A stretch of 64,000 nt of DNA, taken from NCBI GenBank assembly GCA_964187785.1, contig OZ076409.1, positions 29,018,001 to 29,082,000 of the forward strand. Direction: 5' to 3'. A model generated the notes under the pieces. The model ran no database searches and was not told where the DNA came from. It saw nothing but the letters and a program-made list of their open reading frames with translations. How positions within the stretch are numbered: the first letter of the stretch is position 1; the number at the start of each line of letters is the position of its first letter. Position numbers and translations under genes: made by a program. This DNA comes from Amphiscolops sp. MND2022. Its lineage: Eukaryota. Below, piece after piece: positions 17,929-59,000 of the stretch.

Positions 17929-18160
17929 TTTTTGCGTAATGAAGTCCGAAAAATTCCAAAATCTTTAATCCTAAATGGACCATGGTACGATATCGTACCA
18001 GTTAAATTCTGCAAAGTTCTAAACGCACCAGCTGACCGTATGGCAAAGAAAACTCTTGAATAGGACTTTCAGACAATTTTACGGTAAAAAATTCAGAAAT
18101 CGTACCATGGTCCATTTAGGGTTAAAGATTTTAGAATTTTTCGGACTTCATTACGCAAAA
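17929..18160. mobile_element. Small MITE with ~60-bp inverted termini
   Basis: TTTTGCGTAATGAAGTCCGAAAAATTC...GGACCATGGTACGAT mirrored by ATCGTACCATGGTCC...TTCGGACTTCATTACGCAAAA. Confidence 0.65.
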
Positions 18161-26381: not shown

Positions 26382-26828
26382 GGTGTCAGGACATTTAATC
26401 CTATGCAATTTCAACCTATGCAATTTCAACCGTTGCCATTCCAACCGCTCACAATTTCAACCTATTGCATTTTCAACCGTCCGCCATTTCGACCTAAACT
26501 AATTATGGCTAATGGATCCTAATTAGTTAATAATTATTTCGGTGGTTTTAACTTTCATACACTTCTAAATTCTAAAAGTGCTAATTATTAGGCCAGTTTT
26601 GATACTTTTGGGCTTCTTCATGAATAGTTACCATTAATTGAGACTGTTTGATTCATTAGTAATTATTGTACTAAAATAATAGCTCAACTGAATTAAAAGT
26701 AAATAGCCACAATTAGGTCGAACTTGCGAATTGTTGAAAATGCAATCGTTTGAAATTGTGAGCAGTTGAAATGGCAACGGTTGAAATTGCACAGGTTGAA
26801 ACTGTATTGGACGAAATGTCATGTAGCC
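26382..26828. mobile_element. Intact Mutator-type MITE
   Basis: Termini GGTGTCAGGACATTT / AAATGTCATGTAGCC, inverted 15-bp CAATTTCAACC arrays, and a perfect 8-bp TSD TTGGAGAC (26374-26381, 26829-26836). Confidence 0.85.
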
Positions 26829-27849: not shown

Positions 27850-28215
27850 TGGGGCGCTTTTGTCTGGGGCGCTTTTGTCTGGGGCGCTTTTGTCTGGGGC
27901 GCTTTTGCCTGGGACGCTTTTGTCTGGGACGCTTTGTCTGGGGCGCTTTTGTCTGGGGCGCTTTTGTCTGGGGCGCTTTTGTCTGGGGCGCTTTTGCCTG
28001 GGACGTTTTTGTCTGGGACGCTTTGTCTGGGGCGCTTTTGTCTGGGGCGCTTTTGTCTGGGGCGCTTTTGTCTGGGGCGCTTTTGTCTGGGGCGCTTTTG
28101 TCTGGGGCGCTTTTGTCTGGGGCGCTTTTGTCTGGGGCGCTTTTGTCTGGGGCGCTTTTGTCTGGGGCGCTTTTGTCTGGGGGGGCTTTTGTCAGGGCGC
28201 TTTTGTCTGGTAACC
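27850..28215. repeat. 15-bp minisatellite (TGGGGCGCTTTTGTC)n, ~24 copies; probably the expanded subterminal array of a Mutator-type end
   Basis: Direct tandem repeat ending in TGGTAACC, the same GGTTAC terminus seen on the neighbouring MITEs. Confidence 0.9.
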
Positions 28216-28531: not shown

Positions 28532-28653
28532 GAACTCAAAATAAAAGCAAAGAAAACGAACCCAGTGTTGTATTTTGATCAGAAAGAAGCTCGAATTTCT
28601 TTCTGATCAAAATACAACACTGGGATCGTTTTCTTTGCTTTTAATTTGAGTTC
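28532..28653. repeat. Near-perfect palindrome with ~57-bp arms
   Basis: GAACTCAAAATAAAAGCAAAGAAAACG..GATCAGAAAGAA / TTCTTTCTGATC..CGTTTTCTTTGCTTTTAATTTGAGTTC with a short loop. Confidence 0.85.
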
Positions 28654-37446: not shown

Positions 37447-40400
37447 TGTAGCGATTACCTATCGAGTACACGATTTCGAAAATTTCGATGAAAATTTCGT
37501 TCAAGGGACTATATCCCCTCTACTGAAAAGTCATATTCCGCTGGACGGCAGCGTGTCTTTATTCAAGTACCTGCCCACAGAATTGAAGAGAATTTGAGCA
37601 AAAGACTCCGGGCAGACCCCAACCGAACGAGAAGACTGCAGAAAAACACGGCCGCTGTCAGAAAAAGACTCAAATTTCTGTCAAAACGGACTGAACTTTG
37701 TTCTAGCCAGTGCTTTCTTCAGCGAAGCGTTACAAGACGCTGTGATTACCGAAAATGAGTCAATTGGCTTGACCAAGCATCCGTGCTTGTGTCCCCGGCT
37801 AATTGCTGCCTCAAAAGTGCTAATTATGTAGTAATTTTCGTATTTTCTTGTTGTAACAGCTCGTGAGCTACTTATTTCGATTTCCTGTGTAACTTCTAAA
37901 AAACTTGATTTTTCCTTTCCACCACTTGCATTTTTTAAAGGCTATCTAAGCGTTGGTTCCGAAGAAAAAGCGTAATGCGCGCTACTGTTAGCAATTACAG
38001 ACTGGATCAGGCCGGCGAGCACTTCTTAAGAAGCGGAATCCTCCTCTGACGGGACATTTCTTACCCGAAGGAGGCAAAATGGACTCATGGCCATGGGCGC
38101 CTGTCCCGAGCAAATACCCATGCCATGTGTTCCTCCTGCTCTTATGGTTACGGCGACAATGGTGAGAGCTTGTCGTTACATGGAGAACACATTTTATGGC
38201 GACCACAGAGGGATCGCTTCGAAGTGCTTCCCTTAATGGTTTTAAAATAGCCGACCCTCTGGTGATTGACGCCAAGTACGACCCGACTCTGATGGAAAGA
38301 AGAGAGAAGCAGAGTTTTTCCACGTTTTTACCCTGTGTGTGTTATTGAAGACTTCAAGCCCGGTGGATAAAGGTAAATCTTGTAAAAAAGCGCTGTATGT
38401 TGTGATTTTCATGCTTTTTCAGTAGTTGACAGGTAACGATCGAAATAGCCTACCCTCTTAACGGGTCACTCATAAAATTGGTCTAGCAAGCCGTTGGAAG
38501 GCTGCTAGAAGTGTTAGCAGGTGTTTTCTAGCCTTTTTCAGCTTTTTATGACCAATGAAGTGAGTGTTGAGAAGAGGACGATCCTTGCTCAGACGAATCT
38601 TACAATCTGCCGAAACGAGTTATACGACTCACCGATCCCATTTCTCATACAGGCAACCTAGAGGAATGAAATTTGGTGGAGACGTACTACAAATGCTGAC
38701 GTGTCTAATGGTGCAACCCGTTTGTCTCTAGCTGTTCTGGGTGATGAGCAAAAAGAACGAGAAGACACGACTCGTCAGTCCGGGTTGTATAATATTTTTG
38801 AGTCAGGTTGAAAAAATTTTTTGGGTTGCTCAAAATTTTGTGTACGACCACTTGCCAATGTTTTTACGAGCCTTCTGTAACTAGGTGTGTGCTTTTGCAC
38901 CTGTTTTGTGCGAAAAAAGCACGTTTTTTCATGTATTTTCGACGAAAAGTGCCAAATTTGGCCATTTTGAGGCGAAACACCTACATGAGCGCGAGCGCTC
39001 TTGGTGCTAGCCACACACCTGCAGAAATTAAATAAAAGTAGCTCAGGACTCTAATGAGTTCGCAAAAAACGCGACGAACTGCTCAAAGTTGCCCGAAAAG
39101 GCACTTAGTATAAATTTTGTGAGGAAAAAACCCCGTTTTTGGAAGACTGAACATTTTTAGCACTTTGAATTTGTGGGGGAACTTGTATAGAAGCTTTTAA
39201 ACACCCCCGTATGGTTGCAATTAGGTTGGGGTACACCTGCCGGTACCCAACAATACCCATTTTGGTAATTATAACCACTACTTCTTGAAAAAAGTTACGA
39301 GAACTGTGATTTTGAGGTTTTTCTATAGTACTCTTAGAAGAAACCCAATTTGACTATTGACGAACACTTTTACGCTTAGAATAGCCCCCGGGCTATTATT
39401 TTCAGTTTATTCAGTAAATTTAACGATCTACAGTGAAGACCACATCCCAAAATTCCTTTTCAGTGCTGAGAAAAGTAGAAAAATGCACTGAAAAACCTCC
39501 ATTCTCCTAAAATCCGGACTGTCTCTGAGCTAAGGTCGGGTCATTGATTCTTGGACCTTAGCCAAAAGGTGGTTGCATTTTCATAACCACCACTAAAAAT
39601 AACGCTAGTGCCGAAAATTTGGTGGACGTAACTTTCACCAAAGTCGAAAAAAGTTCTCTAACGTTTCAACTTCAGGGGACTGTAAAACTGCCGAAATAAT
39701 CCAAAACTGACGGACTGTCGGTGCCTCGTGTTTAACGGGCACACCTAATCGAGGGTTTATCCTAGTACTACGAGTAGTGGGGCAACACGTAGGTCCCATT
39801 TTTTTCAGCCCTACCACTTTTTGAGGTGACCCTCTTAGCCAATTTGTGAAAAAAGTAGTCCAAAATTGTGTTTTTTTTATGAGTGTTGTCCAAGTAAGGT
39901 CGGAACCTCAAATAAGCGTCCGCGCTTTCATTTGATGGTTTCACCGGCATTGTACACGCTCATCGACTGTAGCTACAAAGTCTCGTGTCAATCCAGCCGG
40001 TACTTGGTGAGAAAATAGAAAAAACGTACCACTCAAAAAGTTGGGCATAGAGGGTAATTTTTCAAATTTTTCCTGAGTGATCCGAGTACCTTAATTGAAA
40101 AACGAGGTTGAATTGCCGTTCATTTCTATCATTTGTACCAGATACTACGTTGTTTTGCAAATTTTGAGCCCGCTAGCTTTTTTTCAGTAAAGCACAATCT
40201 TGAAATAAGCATGAAAATTGATGTATCTTGGTGACTAAGGGTACCGAACGTCCGAATCAGCCTGAATCTTGAAATAAGAACCTTAGCTTAGATTTGATTT
40301 TGCTATCGTGTAGTACACCTACCACAAGGTCAGGTGGCCAATTTTTAAGTGTCTCCGACGATTAGACGTTGCGCTCGAGGCATCTTAGTCATTTATAAAG

Positions 40401-41129
40401 AAATCTGAAAAACTCAAAAATTGTCTAAAAACTCGATTGTTTGCGAATTAGCTCTTCCGCAAGCCCCAAACGCACGGTTTCCGGCCCCACAGCACGGTAT
40501 CAACGCGCTGTGTAAGTTTCACGCCGGTACGACCCCTAGATCGATTTTTGACTTTTTCGAGACGTGTGAAATCATGAAAACTAACAGTTTGCGTAACCTT
40601 TGGAATTCTATAACGAGAACATTAAGCCGCACGAACACCCGGCGATGCTCTAATCTTTCAAGAGGGGGGAGGAAGGACACGTCGCGACGCGCTGAAGCAT
40701 CGAAAACACCAGACCCAACGGGGTGCGAGACAAATCTCAGTGCAATATCAGACCTGACCTCAGACCCCAGGGAGGAAGATTGGCCAACTGATGACAGTTT
40801 CGTTATGGAACCCGATTTTTCAGACCCTATGTCAGACGACGCATCGGAGAAGTATCAGGCCAAGCCGGTCGCCAGGACTACCGATGATATCGGAGGTTCA
40901 GCTGACGAGACAGGAAGTCAGACCCATACTTCCAAATGGTTGCTGGACTTACCCAGCGCTGTCACACCCTATGGTGTAGATGACACTGGAGCGTGGCCTA
41001 ACTCCAACAAGACGAATGAAGATGAAGTAGAAATGAGCTGTCTGAATGCGACGGGGCAATTCAAAGCTCCAAGCACTGCGAGTGAGGGCACAGCTCATAC
41101 CACAGAAGTACTCCAACAAATGTCCTACA
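37447..41129 (+). repeat. Inferred 5' LTR of copy A (~3.7 kb), followed by a candidate PBS TGGGGGC at 41131
   Basis: The left end is fixed by three junctions. The right end is inferred from CTACA (inverse of TGTAG) followed after 1 nt by TGGGGGC, the first 7 nt of a tRNA-Pro-type PBS. It is unconfirmed because no complete 3' LTR lies in the window. Confidence 0.55.
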
Positions 41130-44100
41130 TTGGGGGCATGGATTATGCCAGGGCACGTCTTCAAGAAGCTACGGCTCCCCGAGCATCTGGGAAGGGTAAG
41201 CAAGTACGGCCCCCAGCTTTATTAGCACTAACCAGTACTACAGGACCTCATGGCGATTCACGCTCATCCTCACCCTCATCAAAAGCTGCATCTGCCCGAT
41301 CTTCGGCATATCGAGCCGTACATGAAGCAGCGAAAGCGCGCAAAGCTCTATTAGATGCTCAGATAGGCGTGAAGCAAGCTGCTTCACAACTGTCTGAGCG
41401 CAAGGCAAGGTGCGATAGAGAGCACCAGTCAATAATGGAGGAAATAGAAGCCGTGCAGGCTGAATTGCGAACATCAACTGAGCGACAAGCGCAAGGACAT
41501 GAAATTCAGGCCGCCCGAATGGATGCTATGGGCTATCGAATGGCCGAAATGAAAGACATGGTGGCCAAAACAGAGGTGCGCATGGAAGCTCAAATGCAAG
41601 AGGTATGTTCACAGATACAAGCGATGGGCACTATGTTGAAAAATATCCAACCTCGACCCGCACCAGCGAGCAACACTATCAAAGAGTTGCTGCAAGACAC
41701 TGACGTATCACTGCCAAAACCCATGAAAAGCGTCTCCCTCAAGCCAAAAGAGAGTGTGACGACTGCAACAAACCCATCTGGCTCTAAACAGCACTTGGCG
41801 AGGTACGCGCCTTTGCCACAACCTCTGGTATCAAATGGAGAGGCCGCATCAACCTCGACGAAATTTATCCCGTCTGCGGTATCAACAAAATATGTTCCAC
41901 CCACGACCAAAGCTCACAAGAAAGAACCAACGTGCGAGGTGATAACTATCGACACTTCAAGCATGGGTATCACCGGCCTGCGAGAGCCCACACGCACAAA
42001 CGAGCTAACTGAAGTCACCAGCACTTTCCAAACAGCAAATGCAACTTTGGGAGAATCAGCTGCAGAATTCCAAACCGCGGACGATGGGTTGCCCCCGGGC
42101 AACCCATGCGCCAGCAGCACCCGACGCCGAGAAGTGACTATCCCCGAGAACACCGATGACTCTGTCAACTCAACGCGAGGCAGCAGTATCCCGCCACCAG
42201 CTATCACTGAAGAAGCGCCTATATCACCGGAGCAACTCAGGTTTACCGAGGCAATATCCAAGGCCATGTCCAAGGAACTGGCGCCGCTAATTGCTAATCA
42301 AGATCAAACTAGGGTCCGCCCTACGGTGTACAAAGGCACTAAAGATGGTACTGTCGATGGATGGCTTCCAGTGATGAAGCGATTTCTAGAAAGTGTGCAT
42401 GCAAAATCACCAAAGATCGACAAAGCCTGGGCTATCATCGACCACCTGGAAGGGGAGGCGAGAAATTATATAATCAACAAATCTGAACCTGAACGAGACG
42501 AGCCCGACAAGGTATTCTCTCTCTTGGCCAGCAGGTTTGGAACCGGTGGAAACCGCATGCACGTCAGGCAAACCTTCATGTCTCGTGTCCAACAGGAAAA
42601 AGTGGATTGGATGCAATTCTTGGACGCATTGGAAGGTCTGCGCACCCAAGGTTTCCCAGACGAGCCTATCACTACACGTCGTTATGAAATCCTGCAACGT
42701 TTTATAGATGGCGTCAATGACTCGACGCTGCGACAAGAGTTGGCCGTGGTGTACGCTGCGGAGACGTATTTGACTGAGCCACCAACTGTAGAATCCCTGA
42801 GATTCACCACGAGACAATTGCAACGGCATCGCCCAAACACGTCAAAACCTTACGACCCAAGGTATGCAATGAGATCGAGGCCTAATCCTTTCGTGCCAGG
42901 GAAATTGGTTCACCCGGCACGAGGCCTACCACAAAATGTGCTGCCTCCAAACCAAGGACAGCGAGAGGCAAAGCCCCAGATGGCCCCACCAGGCCCTGCA
43001 TCGGTAAAACAGGCTCCTGCACAGCAGCAACCAGCGAGAGTGATTCCCCAAGGAGCATGCTTCAACTGTGGACTACCGGGTCACTTTGCGAGGGAATGCC
43101 CACATCGAGACCTAGCAAGGAAACCCGCGGCTCGCGCTGCACCCGAAGAGCGAGTGAACCTGTGTGAGAACAATGTGGCCTCTGCATGTTCTGGCCCCGT
43201 ATTCTGTGTTAACTGTGGCATGACCGAACACTCTGCATCACAATGCCAAAATATTCCAGTACATGAGGATTTGGCCTACATCCTCTGGGCTGAACAGCCA
43301 TCTGCTTCTCAAACGATGAGTGACAGTGAAATGGTACTCATGCTACGCCCTGCTGAAGCCGCTCACGTGGCGACGCCTCTTACCGTCACATGTGGCAAAA
43401 TCCAAATCCAGACGAACCCAGAGCCAACTACTTTTAATCCCTCGGGACGCACTATCATGTCTGCCCGACTACTGTTGGCGGTCGAGAGAGAAACCCGCCC
43501 AGAACTCACCATAGACGCTCTGATAGAAGAGATGACCGCAAACGAGAATTGCCGGCAACTGACTCTGCCCAAACCGGAAGAGTGGCAAGTGAAAGGTGTC
43601 ACTTCGACGTATCATGCCTATTCTCCGATTCCAGTCAAAGTCTGCATAGATGGTGTTGACATGCGTTTTGGCGCCACTACTATTACTGATGCGTTTCCTC
43701 CTGGAATCTGCTTGGGACCGCAAGAGCTGCGCTGCTATAACATTGATGCTCAAGAACCAACTGGTGAAGCGAGAATCGATGAGCGTGCGTCGCTCGTGGT
43801 TTCATTCGTGGTTCCCGATGCTGCTCCCGTGCCATTACGTGGTCTAATAGACACTGGATCAGGAGTATCCATCCTCACCTTCTCAGCCTACAATCGAGTC
43901 GCCGTGCGCACTGGCACACTCTTACGACCTTATGGTATTGACTTATATGCCGCGAATGGGAAGACGATCAAAACTTTTGGTCTAGCGGAGAAAGTCAAAT
44001 TCCAATTGGGAGGCTATGAATTGGAAACTAACTTCGTGGTAGTTGATGACGCTATGGGAGTGGAAGACTTCCTCCTGGGCAGAAACTTCCTAAGAGCTTA

Positions 44101-47100
44101 TCAGGTCTTGGTAGACCTAACCGCGATGAAGGTCATTGTCCGAGCTCCCTCTGAACCGGTGTGGTACCATGCCCACGCGCAGGTAAGTAACGAATCGCTC
44201 AATTCGTCGGTACCGATTGCACAGGACGTAGTGTTGCAACCTTTTGAACGCGCGATACTACGCGCTAGATTGCTTGTAGACAACTTAGAACCTTTCATGT
44301 TTCGAACCGTGCTAATCAATTTTCAAACACCTAACCGAATGTTAAAAAACGCCATCTTTTTAGAGGACACCGTGGCGACCGTGGGGGAAACTGGTTTCCT
44401 TTACGTCAGTTTAGGAAATCTCACCAGCAACGTACAGCGGATCAAAAAGGGCACCCTTTTGGGAACCGCGGTACCCGTGACGATGGTTCATAAAGCCATC
44501 CCCCAAATTGTCCCCGGACAATCAAATGAAACTCTGCAGTCAAATGCAAATTATGTTTGTAAAATTTACGAACAGATGAACCTTGATTCTTCTTCTGAAT
44601 ATAGTTCTTCATCTGAATTTGAGTTTTTGTCCTCTACCGAACCGTCAGAACTAGGCTTGTCCGAGCGTGAAATAAAAAAACGAACCGATCCGGCGCTAAT
44701 GGCTCCGATACCGGGCCCGGAAGCACAACTCGACGAAGTGCGCGGTTTGTGGGGCTCGACCGCCAGCGACACGCTCGATAAACTTTTAAAAGAGTTTGAC
44801 GATTTGTTCATGAAGTACAAGGCTGACATTGGTAAGTGTAAAATTGCTAAGCACCCGGTGGAAGTAGAGCCAGGGGCTATACCCCACCGCGAAGGTGCAC
44901 GACGAATGTCGCCTGACAAGGCAGAACGTGCTAACCAAGGAGTCCGTGACTTGCTAGCTTTGGGAATGATACAACCTTCCCTATCCCCTTGGGCGAGTGG
45001 AATTGTTATGGTCAAAAAGAAGAGTGGTGAATTGCGATTCTGTTGTGACTTTCGACCACTTAATGAAGTGACCATCAAAGACGCTTATCCCTTGCCACGT
45101 ATCGATGAGAGTCTATCCCGATTGGGCAAAGCCAAAATCTATACCAGTATTGACTTGGCATGGGCATTCTGGCAAATTCCTGTCCGAAAAGCCGATCGTC
45201 AAAAGACTGCCTTCGCTTGTGAACTTGGGTTATTTGAGTGGCGGCGTATGCCTTTTGGTATGTGTAACGCATCAGCAACATTTCAACGGGCAATAGCGCG
45301 AGCGCTACAAAGAATAGTGAACCGCGAAGGAAGTATGGTTATGGCCTATATCGATGACATTGTGATTGCTACCGAGACCATCGAGGATCACATGGATAGA
45401 CTACGCGAAGTATTCCAATGCCTGCGTGAGGCCGGCTTCAAAATGAGAGTCTCCAAGTGTGATTTTATGAAACCGGAGATCAAATATTTGGGCCGAGTTG
45501 TATCCGCAGATGGTATCAAGCCAGATCCCAAAGCTGTCGCCAAGCTGAAAAATTGGGATATCCCGCGAACCAAAACTGAGTTGCAAAGTTTCTTGGGTTT
45601 TGCCAACTACTATCGGGATTTTATCCCATGGCACGCAAAGCTAGTTGCCCCTTTACATGCGATGACGGGCGCAGGCTCTCCAATTTTATGGGGGGAGGAG
45701 CAGCAGCGAGCCTTTAACAGCATCAAAGTGGCACTAATGGAAGCCACTGCTCTGGCGCAACCCGACACTGAAGGCGAGTTTGTTCTTGACACCGATGCTA
45801 GTGGTGTAGCTATATCAGGTATTCTTCACCAATGGCAAGGACCACCTGAGAGTCGCAAATTGCGACCGATTGTATTCGGAAGCAAAAAGTTAACCTCTAC
45901 GCAAGCAAAGTATGGAGCCCCAAAACTGGAAATGTACGCTGCATACTATTTCATCTTGAAAAACCACAGCTATCTCTGTCCACGGAAATTCACACTGAGG
46001 GTCGACAATCAGGCCTTATCCTGGCTAAAGACATATTCGATGGATCAGGCGATTATTGGTCGATGGATTATGGCTCTTGAAAAATATCACTTCGGTATTG
46101 AGCACCGACCCAGAACGCAACATCGAAATGCTGATGGTCTTAGCAAACGAACAAATGACTACAAAAAACACGAAAAGCAATTAAAGGGTTTACCCGCAAT
46201 TGCAGACAAATGGGATTTCCTATCACAAGAGGAATACAACAAACTCCCGCTAGCCCCATGGTTTGATGTCCACGGACGTGTGATACCAAATCACCCAGAA
46301 TTGCCTGCACACTTGCAGAGGTTGGCTAGCAAAAGTTCACCCGAAACCACAGTTGCCGCTCCCACGCGAAGGAGCGGACAAAGCAAACGAAGTGCGATCA
46401 TGCGCGACGAAGCCATGAGAGCACCCCTACCTACATTGCCAAAACCAGAATTGGCACTGCCTGCCGAACTTTATCCAGAGTATCCTGAGGATTGGTTGGA
46501 ACTGACCGAGGAATATCAACGAGACTATTTGCTCCCCACGCATGCTGCTAACGTACCATCAAGAACCACTTATCCACTGACGGAAAAGCAAGCAACTAGC
46601 ACTGCACCAGAGCACGTAAAACAAGCCGCGTTTGTGGTAAGCAGCATATCGATGGAATTGCATGAACATGCTAACACAGTCCATGGGTTGAAAGATCTAC
46701 TACTGGCACAAAACCGTGACGTCCACGTCTTGGCTATCAAGAAATTGGTAATGCAAGAGTCAATAGATCATGACATCTTTCCGGAAAATGTACGTGCCTT
46801 TGCCAAAAACTACCACAAACAGAAGAAGAACCTTCTGCTGGTAAACGCCAACGGGGTTTTGTGTGTAAAGTACTCCAAAAGTCAAAGAGCTTTGCATGAA
46901 CGCCCCTGCATGATAGTGATGCCCCAATTGTATCAGCATGAGATATTGTTCAAGGCCCACGACGCGATGGGACATCAGGGCATCGCGAAAGTCTTGGCCA
47001 GAATTCAAGAGCGCCACACTTGGCCAGGCATCCGCCGCACCATTGGACAATACGTCAGCCAATGTATCACTTGTCAACAAGTACGTGACAAGCCTGGTGA

Positions 47101-50100
47101 TGTACGCTTTCACTTGAAAAATATCCAAAGCGGCTATTTTAATGAGCTAGTCCAATATGACCACATGAAAATTTGTCCCTCTGACGATGGTAACACAGGG
47201 ATCTTGGTTATTATTGATCATTTCTCTAAGCTCGCAGAAGCTGTGCCGTGCAACCACGATGAGTATGATGCAGCGACCACTTCAAAATTGTTGTTGCAGA
47301 AATGGTTTGCCCGCCATGGAACGTCGACGAGAATGCAGTCAGACAATGCTCCCAACTTCACCGCGGCAGTATCTGCTGAGTTTATGAAAGCCGCCCAAGT
47401 GACCAAAGTAACCTCAACTGCTGGCCACCCCAAGACTCAAGGGTTGGTAGAGCGACAAAACCGAACGTTATTACCCTACTGCGCGTATTCTGCTCTAGAC
47501 GAATGCGTGATTGGGACCAGTATTTAGATGAAGTCATGGGTGCATACAACTCCACACGTCATGCCACTACTGGGTTCTCCCCGTATATGCTGACCAGAGG
47601 CATGGAAAAAGCTATACCCCTGACTTTCTTGTATCCCGAATTTGCAACTCAGTCATTCGAATCACACGAAGCCTATGTGGAACATGTGCTGGCTCGACAG
47701 CAAGAGATTCATGACTTAGTCCGTCGTAACACGCATCAAGCCCAGCAGCGACAAAAGTTGAAATACGACCGAGCAATTCGTGCTAAAGCCTATGAAGTGG
47801 GCGAACCTGTTTGGGTATTCTGCCGATACATTCCTCAAAAAGGATCTCCTAAATTGATGAGAGCATGGCGTGGTCCTCACAAAGTAGCACGAGTGCTACA
47901 AGAGGGACGCGTCTACATACTTGACACTGGTCAGAAAGTACATTTCGAACGATTGAAACCGCACCATGGTGGTCCAGCAGAATGGGCAGCTGTTCCTGCG
48001 CATAACGGCGAGGTTGCTATCATCATGGACCCTGACCCAGAACAATCCCACGAGGAAGTGAGAGACGATGCTTCGCAACCTTCTTATCATGCGGAGGAAC
48101 CAATTTCAGAAGCCAGTAATGCCTCTTTGCCTTCTCGACAAAGACATTGGATGGACACACGGTTGCGCACACGCATGCGCGCTGGTGGCAGCCGCCTACA
48201 TTATCAACAATTTGACTATTCTTCGACTGAGTCTGACGACGAACGTTCTGATGTACTCCTGTCGAGTGTTCAGGCTAATCCCGATGAGAGTGCTATCTTG
48301 TCATCACATGTGGATGAACCTGCGCCTATTCCCGAAATACCAATAAAACCACTGCCTGCTATGGAGGCTCTATTCTCAGAGAATGAAGCAGTGCCCGACG
48401 TCTTGGATATCGCCCCAAATCCTACTATCCACGCACCCACCAAAAGTGCCGGCACCTCTCTGACCGGTACATCCGCCCCATTATTGACAAATCCATCTCT
48501 TACGGATATGTTGAGTAACTTTCCCATTTGGCCCCTAATCGATGACAATGTTCTCAACCCCACCTTAGACGACAACGGTGCTGAAGCACCAATGACCAAT
48601 GACGAAAAGGGATTTATTCCCCCTACGACAGTTCCCACCAACAACAACGCAGCTACTACCACGAAACTCTCCAATGCTCCTAGAGGGCATAGACCGCGGG
48701 GACGTCCGCCAGGCAGAGCGAGGCCGCGAGCCTCGCTGCCACGTGGCCACCAACAGAGAGGTGCTATTAGAGGCGCTCGCAAAAGAGGCCGTCCCAGAGG
48801 AAGACCTCCTCGTACAACACACGCCAGACCTAACACCTCTACCCGTGTTCGTCGCACTCCATCTGTGGACACTGACTCTTCTGCCCCTAGCGCGGCGGTT
48901 ACCTCAGATCAAGCAGCACCGCCAGAATCAACCAACGCTCGCTATGGCCTGCGACGCAATCGTTTTCCCAGATATCGTTGCGGAACATGTGGCCTACGAG
49001 ACTGCGAATGTAACTACATGGTCCACGCGGGCTTCCCAATTAAACCCCAGGGAGTCCTGCTAGCACGTGAACAGGAGAAATCGCTTCCAAGCGGCACGGT
49101 TGACTGTTTGGTTATTCGAGCCGAGAAGACTTATACTGGGCTACAACGCAGCGACACTCCATATCCTGTGGACTATATCCTATCCAAAATGAAAGATTCT
49201 ACGATAGCAAAGGCCCCGTGCCCAAGGTTCAAGGAGTGGACCTATGATCTTATTGGTTTGGAATTCACATTACCTATCACTGTTCCCCCCTTGCCTACAA
49301 ATATTGCTTTTGGTCCTTTCAACTATGAACGAGAGCCTATCCAAATGGTACGCTGTATTCCTGCTGACCTTTTGTATGACAAGCACAACGTCACCGCAAA
49401 ACCAGGAGACGTTTATCAGCCTGCAACCAACTGGTGGCTACTAATTACGGCCAAACAAGTGTCCGACCGACCTGGTTCATCCCAATAACTTGAACACCTG
49501 TCTGGAGAGTTTGCGGACAATGGCCTCTCCTGATAGAATCACTTGTTTCCACACCATAGACCTGTATCGTGGTAAAATTAAGTTTGAATGGTGGCTGGAA
49601 CTTATCATAGCAGTCTTATCGAACTTTTCACGAATCCGATTCCTGGACAAATGGACGCACTCATTTCCTAGTCCTGTATCACTCCAATCAGCCCTACACG
49701 CACTGGATACATGGTCCAGGGCTAACATTGATAATCAATCGTTGCCGCGATCTGTGTGGCAAGACTTGGGCGCCATTAAAGGCCTCCTTCCGAACACATG
49801 TGACGATGCTCTCTCCAATGACCCCGGACGAGAGTTAGTATACCATGGAGCCGTGAGACCTCAATTGGTTGACTTTGTGCAGTATGCCAATACGGACTTC
49901 CTGCAAACTCCCCATCATATTGTTTTATGTTGTCCCGCAAACCTTGAGACTAATTCTGCCGCTCTTCGTTACGTCATTCGTGAGCATGGTGCAGATGCAA
50001 TCTTTCAACTTCGACCGGAGGTTGGCATTATTGTGACGCTACCCACATCTTTGATAGACGGCCATCCTCAGACTATCCACCTTTTAATCACACGAGCTAC

Positions 50101-50338
50101 ACCTCGCTGCCCTATGCTCGCTGATATTCTCTTTGGATGTCTTGATCATTTGAAAACGTTACTCGAGCGCTTAGAGGCGATAGAAGTACACTTTGCCATC
50201 ATTGATCCTGAGCGCCCAATACGTAATCTTTTCGACTTTTATACCTGTTTGATGAACGTATTCGCTGACACGCCCCTGACCGTCATTCTTCACGATCGCG
50301 TTTACGTATCTATTGCAAGCGTCGCTAGCTTTCCGTAG
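40574..50338 (+). CDS. Gag-Pol polyprotein (~3250 aa reconstructed; 1-nt deletion at ~47474, 4-nt duplication at 49463-49470)
   Basis: ATG at 40574; capsid-like VYKGTKDGTVDGW..HLEGEARNYI; knuckles CFNCGLPGHFAREC (43058) and CVNCGMTEHSASQC (43205); protease LIDTGS (43850); RT YIDD (45347); RNase H DTDAS..DN..ADGLS; integrase HDAMGH..CITC, YDH..SDN..VERQNR, continuing as ..GAYNSTRHATTGFSPY..WRGPH in ORF 47503-49488 and then in ORF 49490-50338. Confidence 0.93.
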
Positions 50339-50555
50339 AACTTTTTGTTTTTCCTTTCGCTCTTTTTTTTGTCCGCTCGATTAAGTTTAGGTGAATCGAC
50401 ACGGAGTTTACTTGAAACAAATACGTTACCTTTTCTTTTAATGTTAATTTGTGATATCCTATTACTTCCCCTGGTATTACCCTTAAAATGACCTATGGTG
50501 TTACCCTACTATCAAGTGTGCTACAATCGACCTGCACTCTTTCAGAGTTTCCGTC

Positions 50556-53500
50556 ATGAACCAAGGTGACGATGAAAGCAACTACGTCCCTCCAAGGTTT
50601 TCAGATGACTCTCCTGCCTTGGGGCAACGCGTTTACGACACTGCGCGTGTCCAGCGTACCCCACAAATTGCTTTCATTCGAGACAGACTCGACCAAGGTC
50701 TGTCGCCAGCTACAGTAGCCGGGGTGGCGGCGATCATAGCCCAGATGGAGTCACAAGTGCAAGCCCCTATGCTGACGATATCTATCACTTCAGGCTTTCC
50801 TGGGTTCCAGCGATCTATGACGTTTCAAGATGGAGTGTGGTACGGCCATGATCTCACACATCACTTTACGGATGATCGTGCAGCGATCTCATACAGTCCT
50901 GCGAATGGCGGAGTCCATCAGACCAGATCTCTACAGATCCCTTCTTGCCCGCCTCCACCTCCACCGCCACCTCCTGTATCAATGCCACAAACAGTAGTGC
51001 GTGCAAGCACTTCTGCTCCTGCAGTACCTAACTTGTCCAATCAACCAATGGCAGAACAAGCAGTTATCTCAGCACTGCAAGCAGTAGCTATCAACCCTAA
51101 TTACGCTGATTTCATGCGATCCATGGAGCAGTGTTGGCCTGAACTACGCCAAATTGCTCTGCCCACTGTCACTATTCGCAACGAAAACGCCACTTTGAAC
51201 CAAACAAGTCAAGATGCTATCACTATTCCTCACGTCAATCCTCAGTCTGAACAGCCAGGGCACTCCCGCACCGTGACTGTAGAGCGCAGTCGTTCGCCTT
51301 CCCGCTCTTCTCAAAAGGGGGGAGGAGAGAGCCGCCCTGCCTCCAGAAAACGCAATGACCGTTCTCCAACAAGAATGAGTGCTCAACAACCACTAACTGC
51401 TCGTGACAGCCCCTCAAGCAAGCCACCACCCGACAAAAAGATCTCCAACGAGAAGGCCACAACCTCCAAGACGCCAAACCAAACAAAATCAAAAGTGTCG
51501 GAAGCATCCGTGCTTCCCTCACCCCAGCGACAACCAAACGCAACAGGCGAACAACAAGGACTGCCGCAGCCACCATCCACGCAGTCTACAACACGCGAGT
51601 CGCTGGCTCAGCGAACGATTTCTAAGCCTTCTACATCAAGACAGCCACAAACGGAGCAAACTGTGGGTTATCAAGGCACCCCTGAACCTCAGCGAACTGT
51701 CAAGGACATAATGGGTGATTACCCAGGATTGAAGGTAACCAACAGTGGTCCAACTGGAACCCCACTCCGCAAACAGGCAATTCAACGCCCAACTAAGAGG
51801 ACCTTTACAAAGCAACCGACGTACCTGAGTCCAATGCAAAACACAAAGGGCACGCTGATCACCAAGGACTCCCGACGTATCTGGGAATCGGCAGTTATTG
51901 TATCACCCGAATGGCTGTTTGAAAAGAACATGTGTCCTCCGAATGACGAAGAGCATGCGAAATTGAAGAAGGCGAATGTATCTGTATTCATGAATCGTCC
52001 AATTCGCCCCGACCACACCCCTACTAATGAGCCGCCATGGCTAGGGAAGGCAATGAATATTCTGCCAAACGTAGAAGACAACTACTTGGACGCCCTCAAC
52101 ATTGACCTTCGTGGGCAATTCGCTGACCGATACTTCCTCAACGCTGGAGAGACCTTCGAGATCAACCCGCGGTACGCCCGTGACCTCGAAGCCCAGCTAC
52201 CAATGCCAAAAGAAAGGTTGCAGCGTGCGCGCTTCGCCTTACTTGTAGACTCGACCTTCCTCAAAAATATCCCTATTGACAATGTGCTGTCAGACGTGAT
52301 GGTTTTCACTCTACCGCTGTCACGTATCCCCGAGATGGCTGAAGTGTTGGTCACCATGTTTGACCCCGAGATGACGGGGACCTTCAAAGAGCCACCCCCA
52401 CGCAGAGTGATCATCAGTAACATTCTCGATCACATGGCCTGTGAAGGACTAATGGCCCAGATCGCGAACGTTGAAATCATAAATCCAACTCCAGCACAGC
52501 GAGCAACAGTACGCAACGCAGCACTGAATGTGGCCCGAGCCATGGAAAAAGCCCAAAATATCCTAAAGAATAAACTCAACGTGCCAGTCTTGTTTGTAAC
52601 ACCCCCAGGTTTCTGCCAGTGGCATCCCGCCTTGCAGAGATTTATCTATATGGTAACAGAAATTTGCAAATGTAGAGAAATAGACTTTGCGATCTGCGCG
52701 CCCAATATGCGGATCAGCTCCGACGACTTGCGTCCCTCCTGGCTTTCCTACATGGGGTACGTTGCCTCAGTGTCTAAAGTGCTACAGTCAGTGGAAAAGA
52801 CAGGGAACGCGCAGCTGACAATCGATGATGCCATCTATTTTGATCACGGCACTCGTATGGGCTTGTTAGTATTCAACAACAACGGAGAAAGGCGAGTCCC
52901 AGAACCTAGCACGGCTGAATGTGAGGCAATCCGCCTGAATAACTGGATGGAGCGCGCGCGCTCCTCCGGTGGAAAGACTTGCATTAAAACTGATCTTTCG
53001 GAAGTCACCGCCATAATGAGCAAAATCCCCAGCGACCGAGAAGTGGAACGAGCCATCCCGCGAGTTCAATTTGCCCAGGACCTCACTATTGACCAACTAT
53101 CAGTGGGAATGAGGTATATCGCTGCAAAATTGACGAGCGAGACTCAGGCTGAAATCCAAGCCTTCAGCAGCACCTACGACGCTTGGTACCAGCGGCTGCA
53201 AACTACCACCGTAGCAGACATTGCAAAAGAACTTGGGATGTCAACCGACCAATTTGCCATCTGTTTGGGATTGGGTTGGAGTCCCGATGTTATTCGAGTT
53301 GAGTTCGGCTTGGACGAACACTGGTTGATCGAAATCAGCAAGATTATCGGCACCATGCAAGTAAACGAACTCTTTGCACTGATACTCACCTTCGGGCAGA
53401 AACGCTTCGTAGCTGGCCCAATGATGATATTGACCGACCTGGTTACTGAGTGTAATCTGGAATGGCTATTTTCGTATTTAGTGATTGCGCGAGGCAATAT

Positions 53501-54924
53501 CTCAGGCCTCACCGCCTTAGCCAAGCTGCTACAACGAAAAGACGCTCAGGATTATCCCGCTCACCTGGAGCGCATGACAACTTCGTTATATCACTGGATA
53601 TACTGCAGTCTGGTCTTTGCCTCGGGACTTTTCGTGGGCGTAGATAAGCACCAACCATTATATGACGGACGTCAGCTGGTGACCGAGGTAGCTGGATTTC
53701 TGACACCTAACCAGCTGGCAGATTTCACTTTGGCTGAAGTCGAAGACCTTGTACCGGTGTTAGCACCCGTGCTAACTCCGATATTTGGCCCAACCGGGAT
53801 ACTTCGCTATCCCACCAAGCCTCTGCGACTCGCCTGGGAGACACCAACAGTATCCATCCTGACTTTTCTGAAGAATGTAAAACCGTACAACTATCAGCAA
53901 ATGCTTGAACGCGGGCTGTTCCTGCTAATACCCCGCATGTATACCACCATAAAGAACGAAACGCAGCAGGACGAAAACCTGGCCGGCATTCTCAAAGCCC
54001 GGACAAAGAAGGCGTGCCCTTTACCTCGCGAATACGGCCCGGTGAATTGGTACAATTCGCCCCTAGATCACCATGGAATCCCACAGCGATTCAATTGGAG
54101 TTTCGCACACCTCAGGAAGTACGTGACCGAATGCGTACAAGCCATGGGCGGTCACACAAACCAGGGGTATAATTTTCAGATGATCAAGCTTCCAGCCAGA
54201 CTGGCGAGGACCCATCGGCTATGCCCGGGCTAAGCCAATCAGCATGGTTGAGAAAGGCTTTAATGAGCAGTACGCCTATCGCGATCACTACAAACTAGGC
54301 GTGTGGATGTCAAGGACCCTGGAGGAACGCCAAGGGCGCCTAAAAGGCTTGATCATCCCTCCACAGACAATGCCTGTTTGAAATCCAGAGGCGAGGGTCA
54401 CTATGGGAAGCGACATGCCAGCGGAGACCTGCTACCATGTCATGGAACTGCTGAGTGATCCCCTCGGACCCGAATGGGAAGCCTCCAGGCAAATTATAGA
54501 ACATGAAAACAGGGACAACTGGTCCAGAGCCTGCGGGCTCTGGGGCCGACCTGATCTACGCCCGAAACTCAGTGCCAAGCAGAAACGACCCATTGCCACC
54601 CGCAATAGACCGCTAGATCTACCACACCTGTTTAATGCCAGTAGATTGGATGTGCAGATCCCAACCTCCACGTCGACCACAAGTTCTGCCAATGTTAGCG
54701 GCTCAGCCAATGCAGCGCAAGAACATTCGCCAGAAGTCTCAACTCCCGTAGCTGCAGAAAATGGCCCTAGTGGCTCAAACACGACTCCCAGGACCCATGA
54801 AACTGCCAGCGCCGAACCAAGGCCAGTCCTGCGAGAAGGAAATGTGCGAAGAGGATCCCTGTCCGAACCACAACCGAAAGCCGACGTCTCCCCCAGAGCG
54901 CGTCACTTCTCCGCCACCCAGTAA
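50556..54924 (+). CDS. Accessory ORF2 of the retrotransposon (~1450 aa reconstructed): Pro/Ser/Gln-rich N-terminus, SGNH-like domain, helical C-terminal region
   Basis: A 1225-aa open frame continues after a CCAG duplication (54192-54199) as LPDWRGPIGYARAK..., through one TGA (54379, probably TGG), into ORF 54403-54924. It lies between pol and the 3' LTR. Confidence 0.85.
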
Positions 54925-56018
54925 AACAAACCTAACATTATTGCCATTCTGTTTTAAACTTCAATAGTCCTGTGCTAAATGAACCTTTGCGAAACCTCAT
55001 AGTTTCAACCACTGTTGTTGCTAAACTTTGATTTTGGAAGTGCCAATTGGTCATGGGTAAAAACCTCCAAGTGGAGATGAAGCCCCCGGGCTTCATCCTC
55101 CTCATTATTCCGTTTTGGGACCGGCAACCCAACCATAAAACTACGCCTTTGCATTGCCTTAGTTAAATGCAATATTCAATTTGCAATTTGTGTTTGCAGT
55201 TAGTGCTTTTTCAAGCTACCTTATGCTACCTTATGGATGCGCTGTGCGCACTCCGTGCTCTGAATTTTCGGTGCTATTACACCCTTTTAGTTACTAGTTA
55301 TTGTTTACACTGTTGCTATTGTCGAAAAAGACAAAAGGAAAAAAATGAAGGAAAAGGAAACAGAAGGAGAGAGATGAGAAATGGATAGAATAAAAAGATT
55401 GATGGACCTCGACCATTGTTTTTTCTTTGAGTTACCTGATAGGATTGAGAGTAAGTCTCGCAAAAGAAATTTTAAATTGACTGTACTTATTGGTTGATTT
55501 TATGGCAACTGCTTATCAAAAGAACTTTTATCAAACGCCAAGCAGTGCGAAGCTCCCGAGCTTCGGAAAATAAATTTTGAACTGTCATGTGATGGTCGTT
55601 GACCTTAAACCAAGTTTTAACACTAACGGCAATAAAAAATTTTTTTTTGTATGAAAGGCCGAAAAGAAATTTTAACGCCTGAATTGCTCACGACAGGCTA
55701 CAAAAAGTAATAACCTTGCCGTATAAGATTTGTATACGAAGTTGTATTGATTTGATCAAAATGCAGCAACGCTGGGTCAAAAACACTTCCACGAGGCCAA
55801 CTTGACGACGTCCCAATGAACTGCCCAGCGCTACTTGATGTGCACTCTACCTCCTCAGTGGGACATAGATGACCCTGGGTAAAGACTCGATAATGCCAAC
55901 CCACACTTGACGGGGACGTCAAGACTACACCCCGGGGAGTGTATGTAGCGATTACCTATCGAGTACACGATTTCGAAAGTTTCGATGAAAATTTCGTTCA
56001 AGGGACTATATCCCCTCT

Positions 56019-59000
56019 TGTAGCGATTACCTATCGAGTACACGATTTCGAAAATTTCGATGAAAATTTCGTTCAAGGGACTATATCCCCTCTACTGAAA
56101 AGTCATATTCCGCTGGACGGCAGCGTGTCTTTATTCAAGTACCTGCCCACAGAATTGAAGAGAATTTGAGCAAAAGACTCCGGGCAGACCCCAACCGAAC
56201 GAGAAGACTGCAGAAAAACACGGCGCTGTCAGAAAAAGACTCAAATTTCTGTCAAAACGTACTGAACTTTGTTCTAGCCAGTGCTTTCTTCAGCGAAGCG
56301 TTACAAGACGCTGTGATTACCGAAAATGAGTCAATTGGCTTGACCAAGCATCCGTGCTTGTGTCCCCGGCTAATTGCTGCCTCAAAAGTGCTAATTATGT
56401 AGTAATTTTCGTATTTTCTTGTTGTAACAGCTCGTGAGCTACTTATTTCGATTTCCTGTGTAACTTCGAAAAAACTTGATTTTTCCTTTCCACCACTTGC
56501 ATTTTTTAAAGGCTATCTAAGCGTTGGTTCCGAAGAAAAAGCGTAATGCGCGCTACTGTTAGCAATTACAGACTGGATCAGACCGGCGAGCACTTCTTAA
56601 GAAGCGGAATCCTCCTCTGACGGGACATTTCTTCGCCGAAGGAGGCAAAATGGACTCATGGCCATGGGCGCCTGTCCCGGGCAAATACCCATGCCATGTG
56701 TTCCTCCTGCTCTTATGGTTACGGCGACAATGGTGAGAGCTTGTCGTTACATGGAGAACACATTTTATGGCGACCACAGAGGGATTGCTTCGAAGTGCTT
56801 CCCTTAATGGTTTTAAAATAGCCGACCCTCTGGTGATTGACGCCAAGTACGACCCGACTCTGATGGAAAGAAGAGAGAAGCAGAGTTTTTCCACGTTTTT
56901 ACCCTGTGTGTGTTAATGAAGACTTCAAGCCCGGTGGATAAAGGTAAATCTTGTAAAAAAACGCTGTATGTTGTGATTTTCATGCTTTTTCAGTAGTTGA
57001 CAGGTAACGATCGAAATAGCCTACCCTCTTAACGGGTCACTCATAAAATTGGTCTAGCAAGCCGTTGGAAGGCTGCTAGAAGTGTTAGCAGGTGTTTTCT
57101 AGCCTTTTTCAGCTTTTTATGACCAATGAAGTGAGTGTTGAGAAGAGGACGATCCTTGCTCAGACGAATCTTACAATCTGCCGAAACGAGTTATACGACT
57201 CACCAATCCCATTTCTCGTACAGGCAACCTAGAGGAATGAAATTTGGTGGAGACGTACTACAAATGCTGACGTGTCTAATGGTGCAACCCGTTTGTCTCT
57301 AGCTGTTCTGGGTGATGAGCAAAAAGAACGAGAAGACACGACTCGTCAGTCCGGGTTGTATAATATTTTTGAGTCAGGTTGAAAAAATTTTTTGGGTTGC
57401 TCAAAATTTTGTGTACGACCACTTGCCAATGTTTTACGAGCCTTCTGTAACTAGGTGTGTGCTGTTGCACCTGTTTTGTGCGAAAAAAGTGCGTTTTTTC
57501 ATGTATTTTCGACGAAAAGTGCCAAATTTGGCCATTTTGAGGCGAAACACCTACATGAGCGCGAGCGCTCTTGGTGCTAGCCACACACCTGCAGAAATTA
57601 AATAAAAGTAGCTCAGGACTCTAATGAGTTCGCAAAAAACGCGACGAACTGCTCAAAGTTGCCCGAAAAGGCACTTAGTATAAATTTTGTGAGGAAAAAA
57701 CCCCGTTTTTGGAAGACTGAACATTTTTAGCACTTTGAATTTGTGGGGGAACTTGTATAGAAGCTTTTAAACACCCCCGTATGGTTGCAATTAGGTTGGG
57801 ATACGCCTGCCGGTACCCAACAATACCCATTTTGGTAATTATAACCACTACTTCTTGAAAAAAGTTACGAGAACTGTGATTTTGAGGTTTTTCTATAGTA
57901 CTCTTAGAAGAAACCCAATTTGACTATTGACGAACACTTTTACGCTTAGAATAGCCCCCGGGCTATTATTTTCAGTTTATTCAGTAAATTTAACGATCTA
58001 CAGTGAAGACCGCATCCCAAAATTCCTTTTCAGTGCTGAGAAAAGTAGAAAAATGCACTGAAAAACCTCCATTTTCCTAAAATCCGGACTGTCTCTGAGC
58101 TAAGGTCGGGTCATTGATTCTTGGACCTTAGCCAAAAGGTGGTTGCATTTTCATAACCACCACTAAAAATAACGCTAGTGCCGAAAATTTGGTGGACGTA
58201 ACTTTCACCAAAGTCGAAAAAAGTTCTCTAACGTTTCAACTTCAGGGGACTGTAAAACTGCCGAAATAATCCAAAACTGACGGACTGTCGGTGCCTTGTG
58301 TTTAACGGGCACACCTAATCGAGGGTTTATCCTAGTACTACGAGTAGTGGGGCAACACGTAGTTCCCATTTTTTTCAGCCCTACCACTTTTTGAGGTGAC
58401 CCTCTTAGCCAATTTGTGAAAAAAGTAGTCCAAAATTGTGTTTTTTGTATGAGTGTTGTCCAAGTAAGGTCGGAACCTCAAATAAGCGTCCGCGCTTTCA
58501 TTTGATGGTTTCACCGGCATTGTACACGCTCATCGACTGTAGCTACAAAGTTTCGTGTCAATCCAACCGGTACTTGGTGAGAAAATAGAAAAAACGTACC
58601 ACTCAAAAAGTTGGGCATAGAGGGTAATTTTTCAAATTTTTCCTGAGTGATCCGAGTACCTTAATTGAAAAACGAGGTTGAATTGCCGTTCATTTCTATC
58701 ATTTGTACCAGATACTACGTTGTTTTGCAAATTTTGAGCCCGCTAGCTTTTTTTCAGTAAAGCACAATCTTGAAATAAGCATGAAAATTGATGTATCTTG
58801 GTGACTAAGGGTACCGAACGTCCGAATCAGCCTGAATCTTGAAATAAGAACCTTAGCTTAGATTTGATTTTGCTATCGTGTAGTACACCTACCACAAGGT
58901 CAGGTGGCCAATTTTCAAGTGTCTCCGACGATTAGACGTTGCGCTCGAGGCATCTTAGTCATTTTTAAAGAAACCTGAAAAACTCAAAAATTGTCTAAAA

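What the first reader, a model, noticed from the sequence alone, without database searches (positions are those of the whole stretch)
37447..56018. Giant (~22 kb) young Ty3/Gypsy retrotransposon with an unusual accessory gene set
Seen: 18.5 kb separates the two LTR starts, the ORFs are nearly intact, and a near-identical second copy is adjacent. Repairing two small lesions gives a continuous ~3250-aa Gag-Pol with roughly 780 aa beyond the integrase GPY/F motif, and a separate ~1450-aa ORF follows. Known: typical Gypsy elements are 5-10 kb, and giant ones (plant Ogre, planarian Burro) are exceptional. Inference: pseudo-protease + dUTPase-like + AT-hooks + tandem macrodomains + an SGNH-like ORF2 is not an architecture I recognise and may define an undescribed, recently active lineage.
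Basis: partly seen in the sequence, partly recalled or inferred. Interest (0 to 1): 0.88.

Follow-up and report, generated by a model that had tools for sequence, protein, structure and literature searches.

The report
Large retrotransposon with three-base insertion footprint
This is a recently spreading, 19-kb Gypsy-type jumping element that carries several apparently disabled enzyme domains and leaves a three-base footprint where it inserts, a trait so far reported only for the unrelated Troyka group.

Summary
A real, young LTR retrotransposon, but 19.2 kb rather than 22 kb: 734-bp TG..CA LTRs and 17.8 kb inside. The 'adjacent copy' is a second element nested in the first copy's 3' LTR. The accessory domains are supported: pseudo-protease, dUTPase fold, AT-hooks, two degenerate TARG1-type macrodomains fused to integrase, and an SGNH-fold ORF2. 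All look catalytically disabled, are conserved between families, and most have precedents in other retroelements.

Target-site duplications are 3 bp in 25 of 26 evaluable insertions, and in 37 of 40 across three related families. Two other Gypsy families in the same genome give 5 bp (4 of 4). The tRNA-Arg primer site lies 15-16 nt from the LTR.

A 2025 paper gives 3-bp duplications as a hallmark of Troyka alone, and this element fails five other Troyka criteria. It is therefore probably a second, independent 3-bp lineage. Relatives with similar architecture occur in other assemblies, where TSDs could not be tested. Repbase and GyDB were not searchable, and the RT was not placed against named clades.

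The parts
37447..38180 (+). 5' LTR of copy 1, 734 bp, termini TGTAGCGA...TCGTTACA
   Evidence: Boundaries from 26 genomic insertions
38181..38196 (+). 16-nt spacer between LTR end and primer-binding site
   Evidence: 15 nt in family B, 16 nt in family C; kept at 0 of 21 3' LTR ends
38197..38214 (+). Primer-binding site complementary to the 3' 18 nt of host tRNA-Arg(TCG) (15 encoded nt plus CCA)
   Evidence: 264 genomic matches to the tRNA pattern; ARAGORN tRNA-Arg(tcg); 15 of 15 nt match in L061
40409..50338 (+). gag-pol polyprotein gene; in three frames in this copy, one frame in some other copies
   Evidence: 25 of 150 matches in frames of 3,200 aa or more
42266..43246 (+). Gag capsid-like region and two CX2CX4HX4C zinc knuckles (43058-43099, 43205-43246)
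   Evidence: Pfam zf-CCHC E 5.7e-7; weak PNMA hit in a sister family; motifs
43331..43783 (+). Pseudo-protease: retropepsin-like unit without the DTG motif, conserved across the clade
   Evidence: ESM Atlas 0.90-0.93; alignment and hhalign E 6.6e-4 to the protease; model hits tethered protease dimers at rmsd about 12 A
43832..44116 (+). Aspartic protease with DTGSG
   Evidence: Pfam gag-asp_proteas E 9.6e-6; Ddi1 fold Z 10.3
44183..44506 (+). dUTPase-fold domain; no Pfam dUTPase hit
   Evidence: Human dUTPase Z 7.8, rmsd 4.1, 100 aligned, with many other dUTPases at Z 6-7.7; weak transitive profile hits
45011..46087 (+). Reverse transcriptase (YIDD) and RNase H
   Evidence: Pfam RVT_1 E 8.5e-36, RT_RNaseH_2 E 1.3e-21
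46106..46918 (+). About 270-aa RNase H-integrase linker, unassigned, conserved in relatives
46922..47964 (+). Integrase (H2C2, D-D-E core, GPY/F-type WRGPH at 47866-47880); frame broken here in this copy
   Evidence: Pfam Integrase_H2C2 and rve; alignment; motifs
48697..49011 (+). Three RGRP AT-hook cores and a conserved CxxCxxxxCxC cluster
   Evidence: Pfam AT_hook weak (best E 0.2) in 15 of 35 rows; cysteines conserved
49177..49774 (+). First, more degenerate macrodomain-like unit; frame broken here in this copy
   Evidence: hhalign to the second unit: probability 88%, E 3e-6
49817..50329 (+). Second macrodomain, TARG1/OARD1-type, degenerate (LITR for LITK; GCG-D loop replaced)
   Evidence: phmmer to P0415 7e-11 and P0412 6.7e-7; profile reaches P0405, P0417, P0423, which pass the Pfam Macro cut-off; P0405 domain to human TARG1 E 1e-27
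50556..54924 (+). ORF2 (1,456 aa in natural intact form; broken near 54.2-54.4 kb here)
52224..52802 (+). SGNH-hydrolase-fold domain of ORF2; block-I Ser kept, block-V His position reads DLRP
   Evidence: Model pLDDT 78; VIA Z 12.6 to PAF-AH and GDSL lipase, OSK domain of Oskar Z 9.6; Foldseek; alignment
55930..55939 (+). Polypurine-tract-like CCCCGGGGAG, 4 nt before the 3' LTR
55944..56018 (+). First 75 nt of copy 1's 3' LTR, interrupted by copy 2; TCT duplicated
56019..64000 (+). Nested second copy: 5' LTR 56019-56751, primer site 56768-56785, gag-pol start; it ends beyond the window at L002:487

Best explanation
This is a high-copy, recently active family of Ty3/Gypsy-type LTR retrotransposons. 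It belongs to a lineage of large elements (15-19 kb in this genome) whose integrase cuts target DNA with a 3-bp stagger.

Shown here: LTRs, domain order, the tRNA-Arg primer site 16 nt inside the LTR end, 3-bp TSDs, recent spread, and conservation of the accessory domains.

Inferred from established LTR biology: a full-length RNA is packaged by Gag and reverse-transcribed. The linear cDNA then carries about 16 extra nt beyond the U5 CA and a few nt beyond U3, which are trimmed precisely before or during strand transfer.

Inferred here: the accessory domains are pseudo-enzymes kept as binding modules. The AT-hook, Cys-cluster and tandem-macrodomain tail most likely tethers integrase to chromatin (about 50%). 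The SGNH-fold ORF2 most likely acts as an RNA- or lipid-binding helper that is dispensable in cis (about 40%). The window holds one decayed copy with a second copy inserted in its 3' LTR.
For: TSD length: exact 3-bp duplication in 25 of 26 family-A insertions, none extending to 4 bp. An uninterrupted LTR is the empty site of the nested insertion and has one TCT, against TCT on both sides of the insert. Family B gives 6 of 7 and family C 6 of 7. Controls in the same genome give 5 bp in 4 of 4, with the primer site flush to the LTR. The TSD centre is A or T in 22 of 25.

Primer site: matches the host tRNA. It is conserved in family B while the spacer is not.

Recent activity: LTR divergence 0.14-1.2%, n=18.

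Selection: family A versus B pS 0.76-0.85, pN 0.30-0.39 in accessory domains and 0.06 in RT.

Wider lineage: 35 rows form one clade (SH-aLRT 100) apart from 8 shorter Gypsy-type proteins. The same pol layout plus a 1,340-1,900-aa downstream ORF occurs in other assemblies.
Against: Three of 40 insertions do not show a 3-bp TSD: the window's own outer copy (GTA/TTT), one family-B copy (TAC/AAC), and one family-C copy with a clean 4-bp TSD. Only one true empty site was seen. The TSD could not be tested outside this genome, because none of the 15 metagenome loci of 6 kb or more held an LTR pair. The tree was the quick one, had no named reference clades, and flagged long-branch risk. The first macrodomain and the pseudo-protease rest on moderate scores; the tail was not folded. 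Loss of catalysis is read from motifs, using recalled TARG1, dUTPase and SGNH catalytic positions. The functions given for the tail and ORF2 are untested.
Confidence: 0.82

Rival explanations
1. The lineage is already catalogued, for example as generic Gypsy entries in Repbase or as a clade in an invertebrate survey, so only the annotation here is new.
For: Repbase and GyDB could not be searched. PMC10045372 gives 3-6 bp as the TSD range for LTR retrotransposons and retroviruses without naming groups. Relatives are present in several public assemblies.
Against: PMC12440569 (2025, drawing on Repbase) states that Troyka makes 3-bp TSDs while other LTR retrotransposons make 4-6 bp. Nine paper searches listed no TG..CA element with 3-bp TSDs and no Gypsy element with this architecture. 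None of the close homologues carries an informative name.
Confidence: 0.27
2. It is an aberrant, enlarged Troyka (Kuafuortervirus-like) element.
For: 3-bp TSD, with a rare 4-bp exception as also reported for Troyka.
Against: TG..CA instead of CG..CG termini; LTR 713-734 versus 100-400 bp; internal region 17.8 versus 1.6-7.7 kb; CX2CX4HX4C versus CX2CX8-10HX4C; GPY/F-type motif present.
Confidence: 0.03
3. The 3-bp TSD is an artefact of misplaced LTR ends, and the true TSD is 4-5 bp.
For: Three of 40 insertions do not fit. Only one direct empty site was available.
Against: Ends are inverted repeats closing TGT..ACA. The flanks differ between loci immediately outside them. Solo LTRs give the same answer (3 of 3). 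The empty site in the LTR is unambiguous. The same method gave 5 bp for control families.
Confidence: 0.02
4. The tail and ORF2 are separate insertions or neutral cargo in an ordinary Gypsy element.
For: ORF2 is missing from 5 of 7 family-C copies and largely deleted in one family-A copy.
Against: The tail is in frame with integrase in natural proteins from three families. ORF2 sits at the same place in families A, B and C at 46% and 28% identity and in another assembly (L170, E 1e-22). pN is far below pS.
Confidence: 0.03

Closest known systems
Troyka LTR retrotransposons (PMC12440569; main text read, supplements not available)
   Same: 3-bp TSD with rare 4-bp exceptions; PR-RT-RH-IN order; no env
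   Different: TG..CA termini, LTR 734 bp, internal 17.8 kb, canonical CCHC knuckles, GPY/F-type motif, many accessory domains
Ty3/Gypsy (Metaviridae) LTR retrotransposons in general
   Same: TG..CA LTRs, tRNA primer site, purine tract, gag-PR-RT-RH-IN, GPY/F-type integrase end
Planarian Burro / GYPSM1 (PMC6431247, passages)
   Same: Very long single Gag-Pol; dUTPase-like domain between PR and RT; accessory domains
   Different: Smaller; no BIR, BCL2, MATH, ankyrin or env Pfam hits; has pseudo-protease, macrodomains and SGNH ORF2, and the words 'macro' and 'SGNH' do not occur in that review
Bdelloid Vesta/Juno elements (PMC5408684, passages)
   Same: dUTPase domain between PR and RT; GDSL/SGNH ORF downstream of pol
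   Different: Their SGNH residues are intact. Here the His position is Arg and the domain is one part of a 1,400-1,456-aa protein
TARG1/OARD1 macrodomain; macro ORFs in fish endogenous retroviruses (PMC4977317, one passage)
   Same: TARG1-type domain at the pol C-terminus of relatives; macro domains are known as retroelement cargo
   Different: Here duplicated, degenerate and fused to integrase behind AT-hooks

Membership tests
Ty3/Gypsy (Metaviridae) | LTRs with TG..CA termini, tRNA primer site and purine tract | tested here: met
   the primer site is offset by 16 nt
Ty3/Gypsy (Metaviridae) | Domain order gag-PR-RT-RH-IN | tested here: met
Ty3/Gypsy (Metaviridae) | GPY/F-type motif in integrase; CX2CX4HX4C knuckle | tested here: met
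   WRGPH here, WRGPF in relatives; two knuckles
Ty3/Gypsy (Metaviridae) | RT clusters with reference Metaviridae clades | tested here: inconclusive
   Quick tree with database hits only, no named references
Ty3/Gypsy (Metaviridae) | 4-6-bp TSD (typical trait stated in PMC12440569) | tested here: not met
   3 bp in 37 of 40 insertions; hence called Gypsy-type, formal placement pending
Troyka | 3-bp TSD | tested here: met
Troyka | 5'-CG..CG-3' termini | tested here: not met
   TGT..ACA in families A, B and C
Troyka | LTR 100-400 bp; internal region 1.6-7.7 kb | tested here: not met
   734 bp and 17.8 kb
Troyka | CX2CX8-10HX4C zinc finger; no GPF/Y motif | tested here: not met
Troyka | RT in the Troyka clade | not testable with these tools
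   No Troyka reference sequences were obtainable
Burro | Internal region up to 25 kb, total over 30 kb; BIR, BCL2, MATH, ankyrin and env-like modules | tested here: not met
   19.2 kb; no such Pfam hits
Active SGNH hydrolase | Ser, Gly, Asn and His in blocks I, II, III and V | tested here: not met
   Fold met; Ser and Asn kept; the His position is Arg wherever that block is aligned in frame; catalytic positions recalled, not assayed
Active TARG1/OARD1 | Catalytic Lys and GCG-D loop (recalled) | tested here: not met
   Kept in P0405; replaced in families A, B and C

The most novel reading that the evidence does not exclude
An undescribed, apparently widespread lineage of large Gypsy-type retroelements evolved 3-bp target staggering independently of Troyka. 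It also primes reverse transcription 7-16 nt away from the LTR end, so its integrase must remove a long overhang, and it carries a toolkit of pseudo-enzymes. If TSD filters of 4-6 bp are in use (recalled default of common LTR finders), such elements are being missed in genome annotation.
Probability: 0.6. Interest if true: 0.75.

Novelty: new variant of a known kind. Interest (0 to 1): 0.63.

Why it matters
TSD length reports the geometry of the integrase-target complex and is used to classify elements. The 2025 Troyka paper treats 3 bp as distinctive of that group. A second lineage with canonical TG..CA ends and a GPY/F-type integrase would show that 3-bp staggering can arise within Gypsy-type integrases. 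It sits in a genome that also holds 5-bp families, which gives a natural comparison for what sets TSD length. The 15-16-nt primer offset implies unusual end processing. With at least three recently active families of 15-19 kb and hundreds of copies, these elements are a sizeable part of this genome.

Tried and rejected
Searches that gave nothing:
- Pfam on the tail and ORF2 gave nothing useful.
- PDB sequence searches with alignments A1, A4 and A5 found nothing significant.
- A first tRNA pattern was one base short and found 0 matches; the corrected one found 264.
- Viral contigs held no confirmed relative.
- No RNA holder was listed, so expression and splicing were not examined.
- The two look-ups of earlier findings returned nothing.
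- The P0388 and P0415 families were not found in G000 with these queries, so the TSD test could not be extended to them.

Ideas rejected or left open:
- Shared-LTR tandem and 75-bp-LTR readings: rejected.
- A pepsin-like single-chain dimer of pseudo-protease and protease: not supported by the model (rmsd about 12 A).
- A splice-type origin of the ORF2 deletion in L136: the junction does not read GT..AG as aligned.
- SGNH homology of the large ORF2s in L138-L146: weak only (E 1e-3 to 1e-4 to P0301; hhalign 0.8%).
- An integrase residue tracking TSD length: no clear candidate by eye.
- An acoel host: a recalled guess used in one paper search and never verified.

Not done: the tail was not folded, and no complex was predicted.

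Rows dropped before the TSD count: of 41 LTR hits, L025 (no LTR end in the stretch), L040 and L056-L060 (mate not found or not fetched), one unfetched hit and one partial hit.
Full report
Anatomy. Window 37447-45431 repeats at 56019-64000 with 98.8% identity, and a 75-nt block is doubled at 55944-56093. Comparing separately fetched genome stretches with the window fixed the LTR at 37447-38180: 734 bp, TGTAGCGA..TCGTTACA. Six other copies have LTR starts 18.46-18.61 kb apart, so the element is about 19.2 kb with 17.8 kb inside, not 22 kb. The second copy is inserted after nt 75 of the first copy's 3' LTR; the rest of that LTR follows it at L002:488-1149. The genome is 1.07 Gb. The host was not identified and is only inferred to be an animal.

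Coding. Pfam finds zf-CCHC, protease, RT, RNase H and integrase in Gypsy order. In the window copy, gag-pol is in three frames and ORF2 is broken near its end. Unbroken natural forms exist. Of the 150 best genomic matches to the last tail domain, 25 lie in frames of 3,200 aa or more. P0312 (97% identical) runs from protease to the end of the tail. P0042 is a 1,456-aa ORF2 heading a 657-member cluster.

Age. 5'-3' LTR divergence has a median of 0.41% (range 0.14-1.2%; 18 of 21 pairs measurable). LTR pairs of sister families B and C are 99.4-100% identical.

Target-site duplication. In family A, 25 of 26 evaluable insertions (21 two-LTR pairs, 3 solo LTRs and the nested copy) have an exact 3-bp duplication, and none extends to 4 bp. 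The exception is the window's outer copy. The nested insertion supplies an empty site: the intact LTR has one TCT, the occupied one has TCT on both sides. Family B (pol 74%, ORF2 46% identical; 18.8-18.9 kb) gives 6 of 7. Family C (pol 58%) gives 6 of 7, plus one 4-bp case. Two other Gypsy families in the same genome give 5 bp in 4 of 4. The centre base is A or T in 22 of 25, which fits a bent target (inference).

Priming. The sequence at 38197-38214 is complementary to the 3' end of host tRNA-Arg(TCG) and lies 16 nt from the LTR end. The gap is 15 nt in family B and 16 nt in family C, whose primer site differs and whose tRNA was not identified. It is 7 nt after a probable LTR end in a relative from another assembly (L140) and 0 nt in the control families. 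None of 21 3' LTR ends keeps the spacer, so it is removed precisely.

Accessory domains. Pseudo-protease: atlas hits to retropepsins at 0.90-0.93, clade-wide conservation without DTG, and a model (pLDDT 78.5) whose best Foldseek hits are tethered protease dimers and pepsins at rmsd about 12 A. That indicates two protease-like units, not a catalytic dimer. dUTPase fold: Z 7.8 with many dUTPases, in the middling range but consistent. Macrodomains: the second unit reaches relatives that pass the Pfam Macro cut-off, one of which matches human TARG1 at E 1e-27; the first unit resembles the second (88%). In families A-C the recalled TARG1 catalytic Lys and GCG-D loop are replaced. ORF2: SGNH fold, Z 12.6, with Arg at the His position. 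All four accessory regions show pN 0.30-0.39 against saturated pS of about 0.8 between families A and B. ORF2 is absent from 5 of 7 sampled family-C copies, which are 14.8-15.1 kb with near-identical LTRs, and mostly deleted in one family-A copy. It is therefore not needed in cis.

Wider lineage. A quick RT-RH tree of 43 rows groups 35 of them (SH-aLRT 100) apart from 8 shorter Gypsy-type proteins; six translated frames without both domains were left out. The top metagenome loci show gag, then pol with pseudo-protease, protease, dUTPase-like, RT and integrase (macro in 5 of the 15 loci of 6 kb or more), then a 1,340-1,900-aa ORF. One of them (L170) has an ORF matching the ORF2 SGNH profile at E 1e-22. 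None had both LTRs, so their TSDs are unknown.

Comparison. PMC12440569 (parts 1-4 of 5 read; supplements unavailable and could bear on TSD exceptions) says Troyka makes 3-bp TSDs and other LTR retrotransposons 4-6 bp. It defines Troyka by CG..CG ends, 100-400-bp LTRs, 1.6-7.7-kb internal parts, a CX2CX8-10HX4C finger and no GPF/Y motif. This element meets only the TSD. PMC10045372 (passages) gives 3-6 bp for LTR elements overall. PMC11673190 (part 1 of 3) describes Kuafuorterviruses and gave no TSD data in the part read. PMC6431247 and PMC5408684 (passages) document dUTPase-like and GDSL cargo, and PMC4977317 (one passage) macro ORFs in fish endogenous retroviruses. PMC2582038 and PMC12859917 (passages) added nothing. 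Nine searches listed no element with this combination; Repbase and subscription journals were not covered.

Verdict. It works like a Ty3/Gypsy retrotransposon (near certain) and is not Troyka by five criteria. It probably represents an undescribed lineage with an independently evolved 3-bp stagger and offset priming (about 60%). The accessory set is real but modular and partly precedented, and its functions remain inferred.

Noticed in passing
L061-L063 (G000 C9, from about 57.54 Mb): Tandem array of tRNA-Arg genes with a period of about 173 bp; most of the 264 pattern matches listed lie here. This is the tRNA that matches the primer site.
   Followed up: partly
L002:1636-3466 and L114-L115: A family-B element and a partial family-A-like LTR lie on the minus strand just downstream of the nested pair, so these elements cluster here. 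This may explain the mismatched outer TSD.
   Followed up: partly
L040 and L050: A 5' LTR and a solo LTR 19.6 kb apart share the same left flank, suggesting a local duplication with one copy reduced to a solo LTR.
   Followed up: no
P0403 residues 1300-1500: A relative carries an SGNH domain with intact-looking GDSL, GxND and DGIH motifs in frame after the integrase core: a separate SGNH capture.
   Followed up: no
P0422, P0423: Relatives with RT, RNase H and a macrodomain but no integrase hit in the same protein.
   Followed up: no
L109-L113, L130-L135, L217-L219: Another large Gypsy family (about 15.3 kb, LTRs about 1.6 kb, 5-bp TSD) with a dUTPase-like domain and an antisense ORF of about 400 aa that has no Pfam hit.
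   Followed up: partly
L103-L105: A 13.7-kb Gypsy element with a Pfam-positive macrodomain at the pol end, an antisense 382-aa ORF and a further ORF of at least 688 aa; LTR ends in AGA, 5-bp TSD.
   Followed up: partly
L138, L142 downstream ORFs: The 1,840-1,900-aa ORF2 of metagenome relatives has a weak IBR (half-RING) hit, E about 1e-3.
   Followed up: no
window 46106-46918: A 270-aa conserved linker between RNase H and integrase with no family assignment; longer or repeated in some relatives.
   Followed up: no
window 22904-24192: Three tandem copies of a 427-bp unit, 96% matched.
   Followed up: no
window 27850-28210: A 15-bp minisatellite (24 copies) inside a 229-aa frame that hits Pfam Pentapeptide (E 7.5e-10), probably because of the repeat.
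   Followed up: partly
window 1406-1966, 17930-18160, 26387-26823, 28532-28653: Long imperfect palindromes with 15-16-bp subrepeats, MITE- or foldback-like.
   Followed up: no
window 15049-16521 (-): A 490-codon open frame with no Pfam hit.
   Followed up: partly
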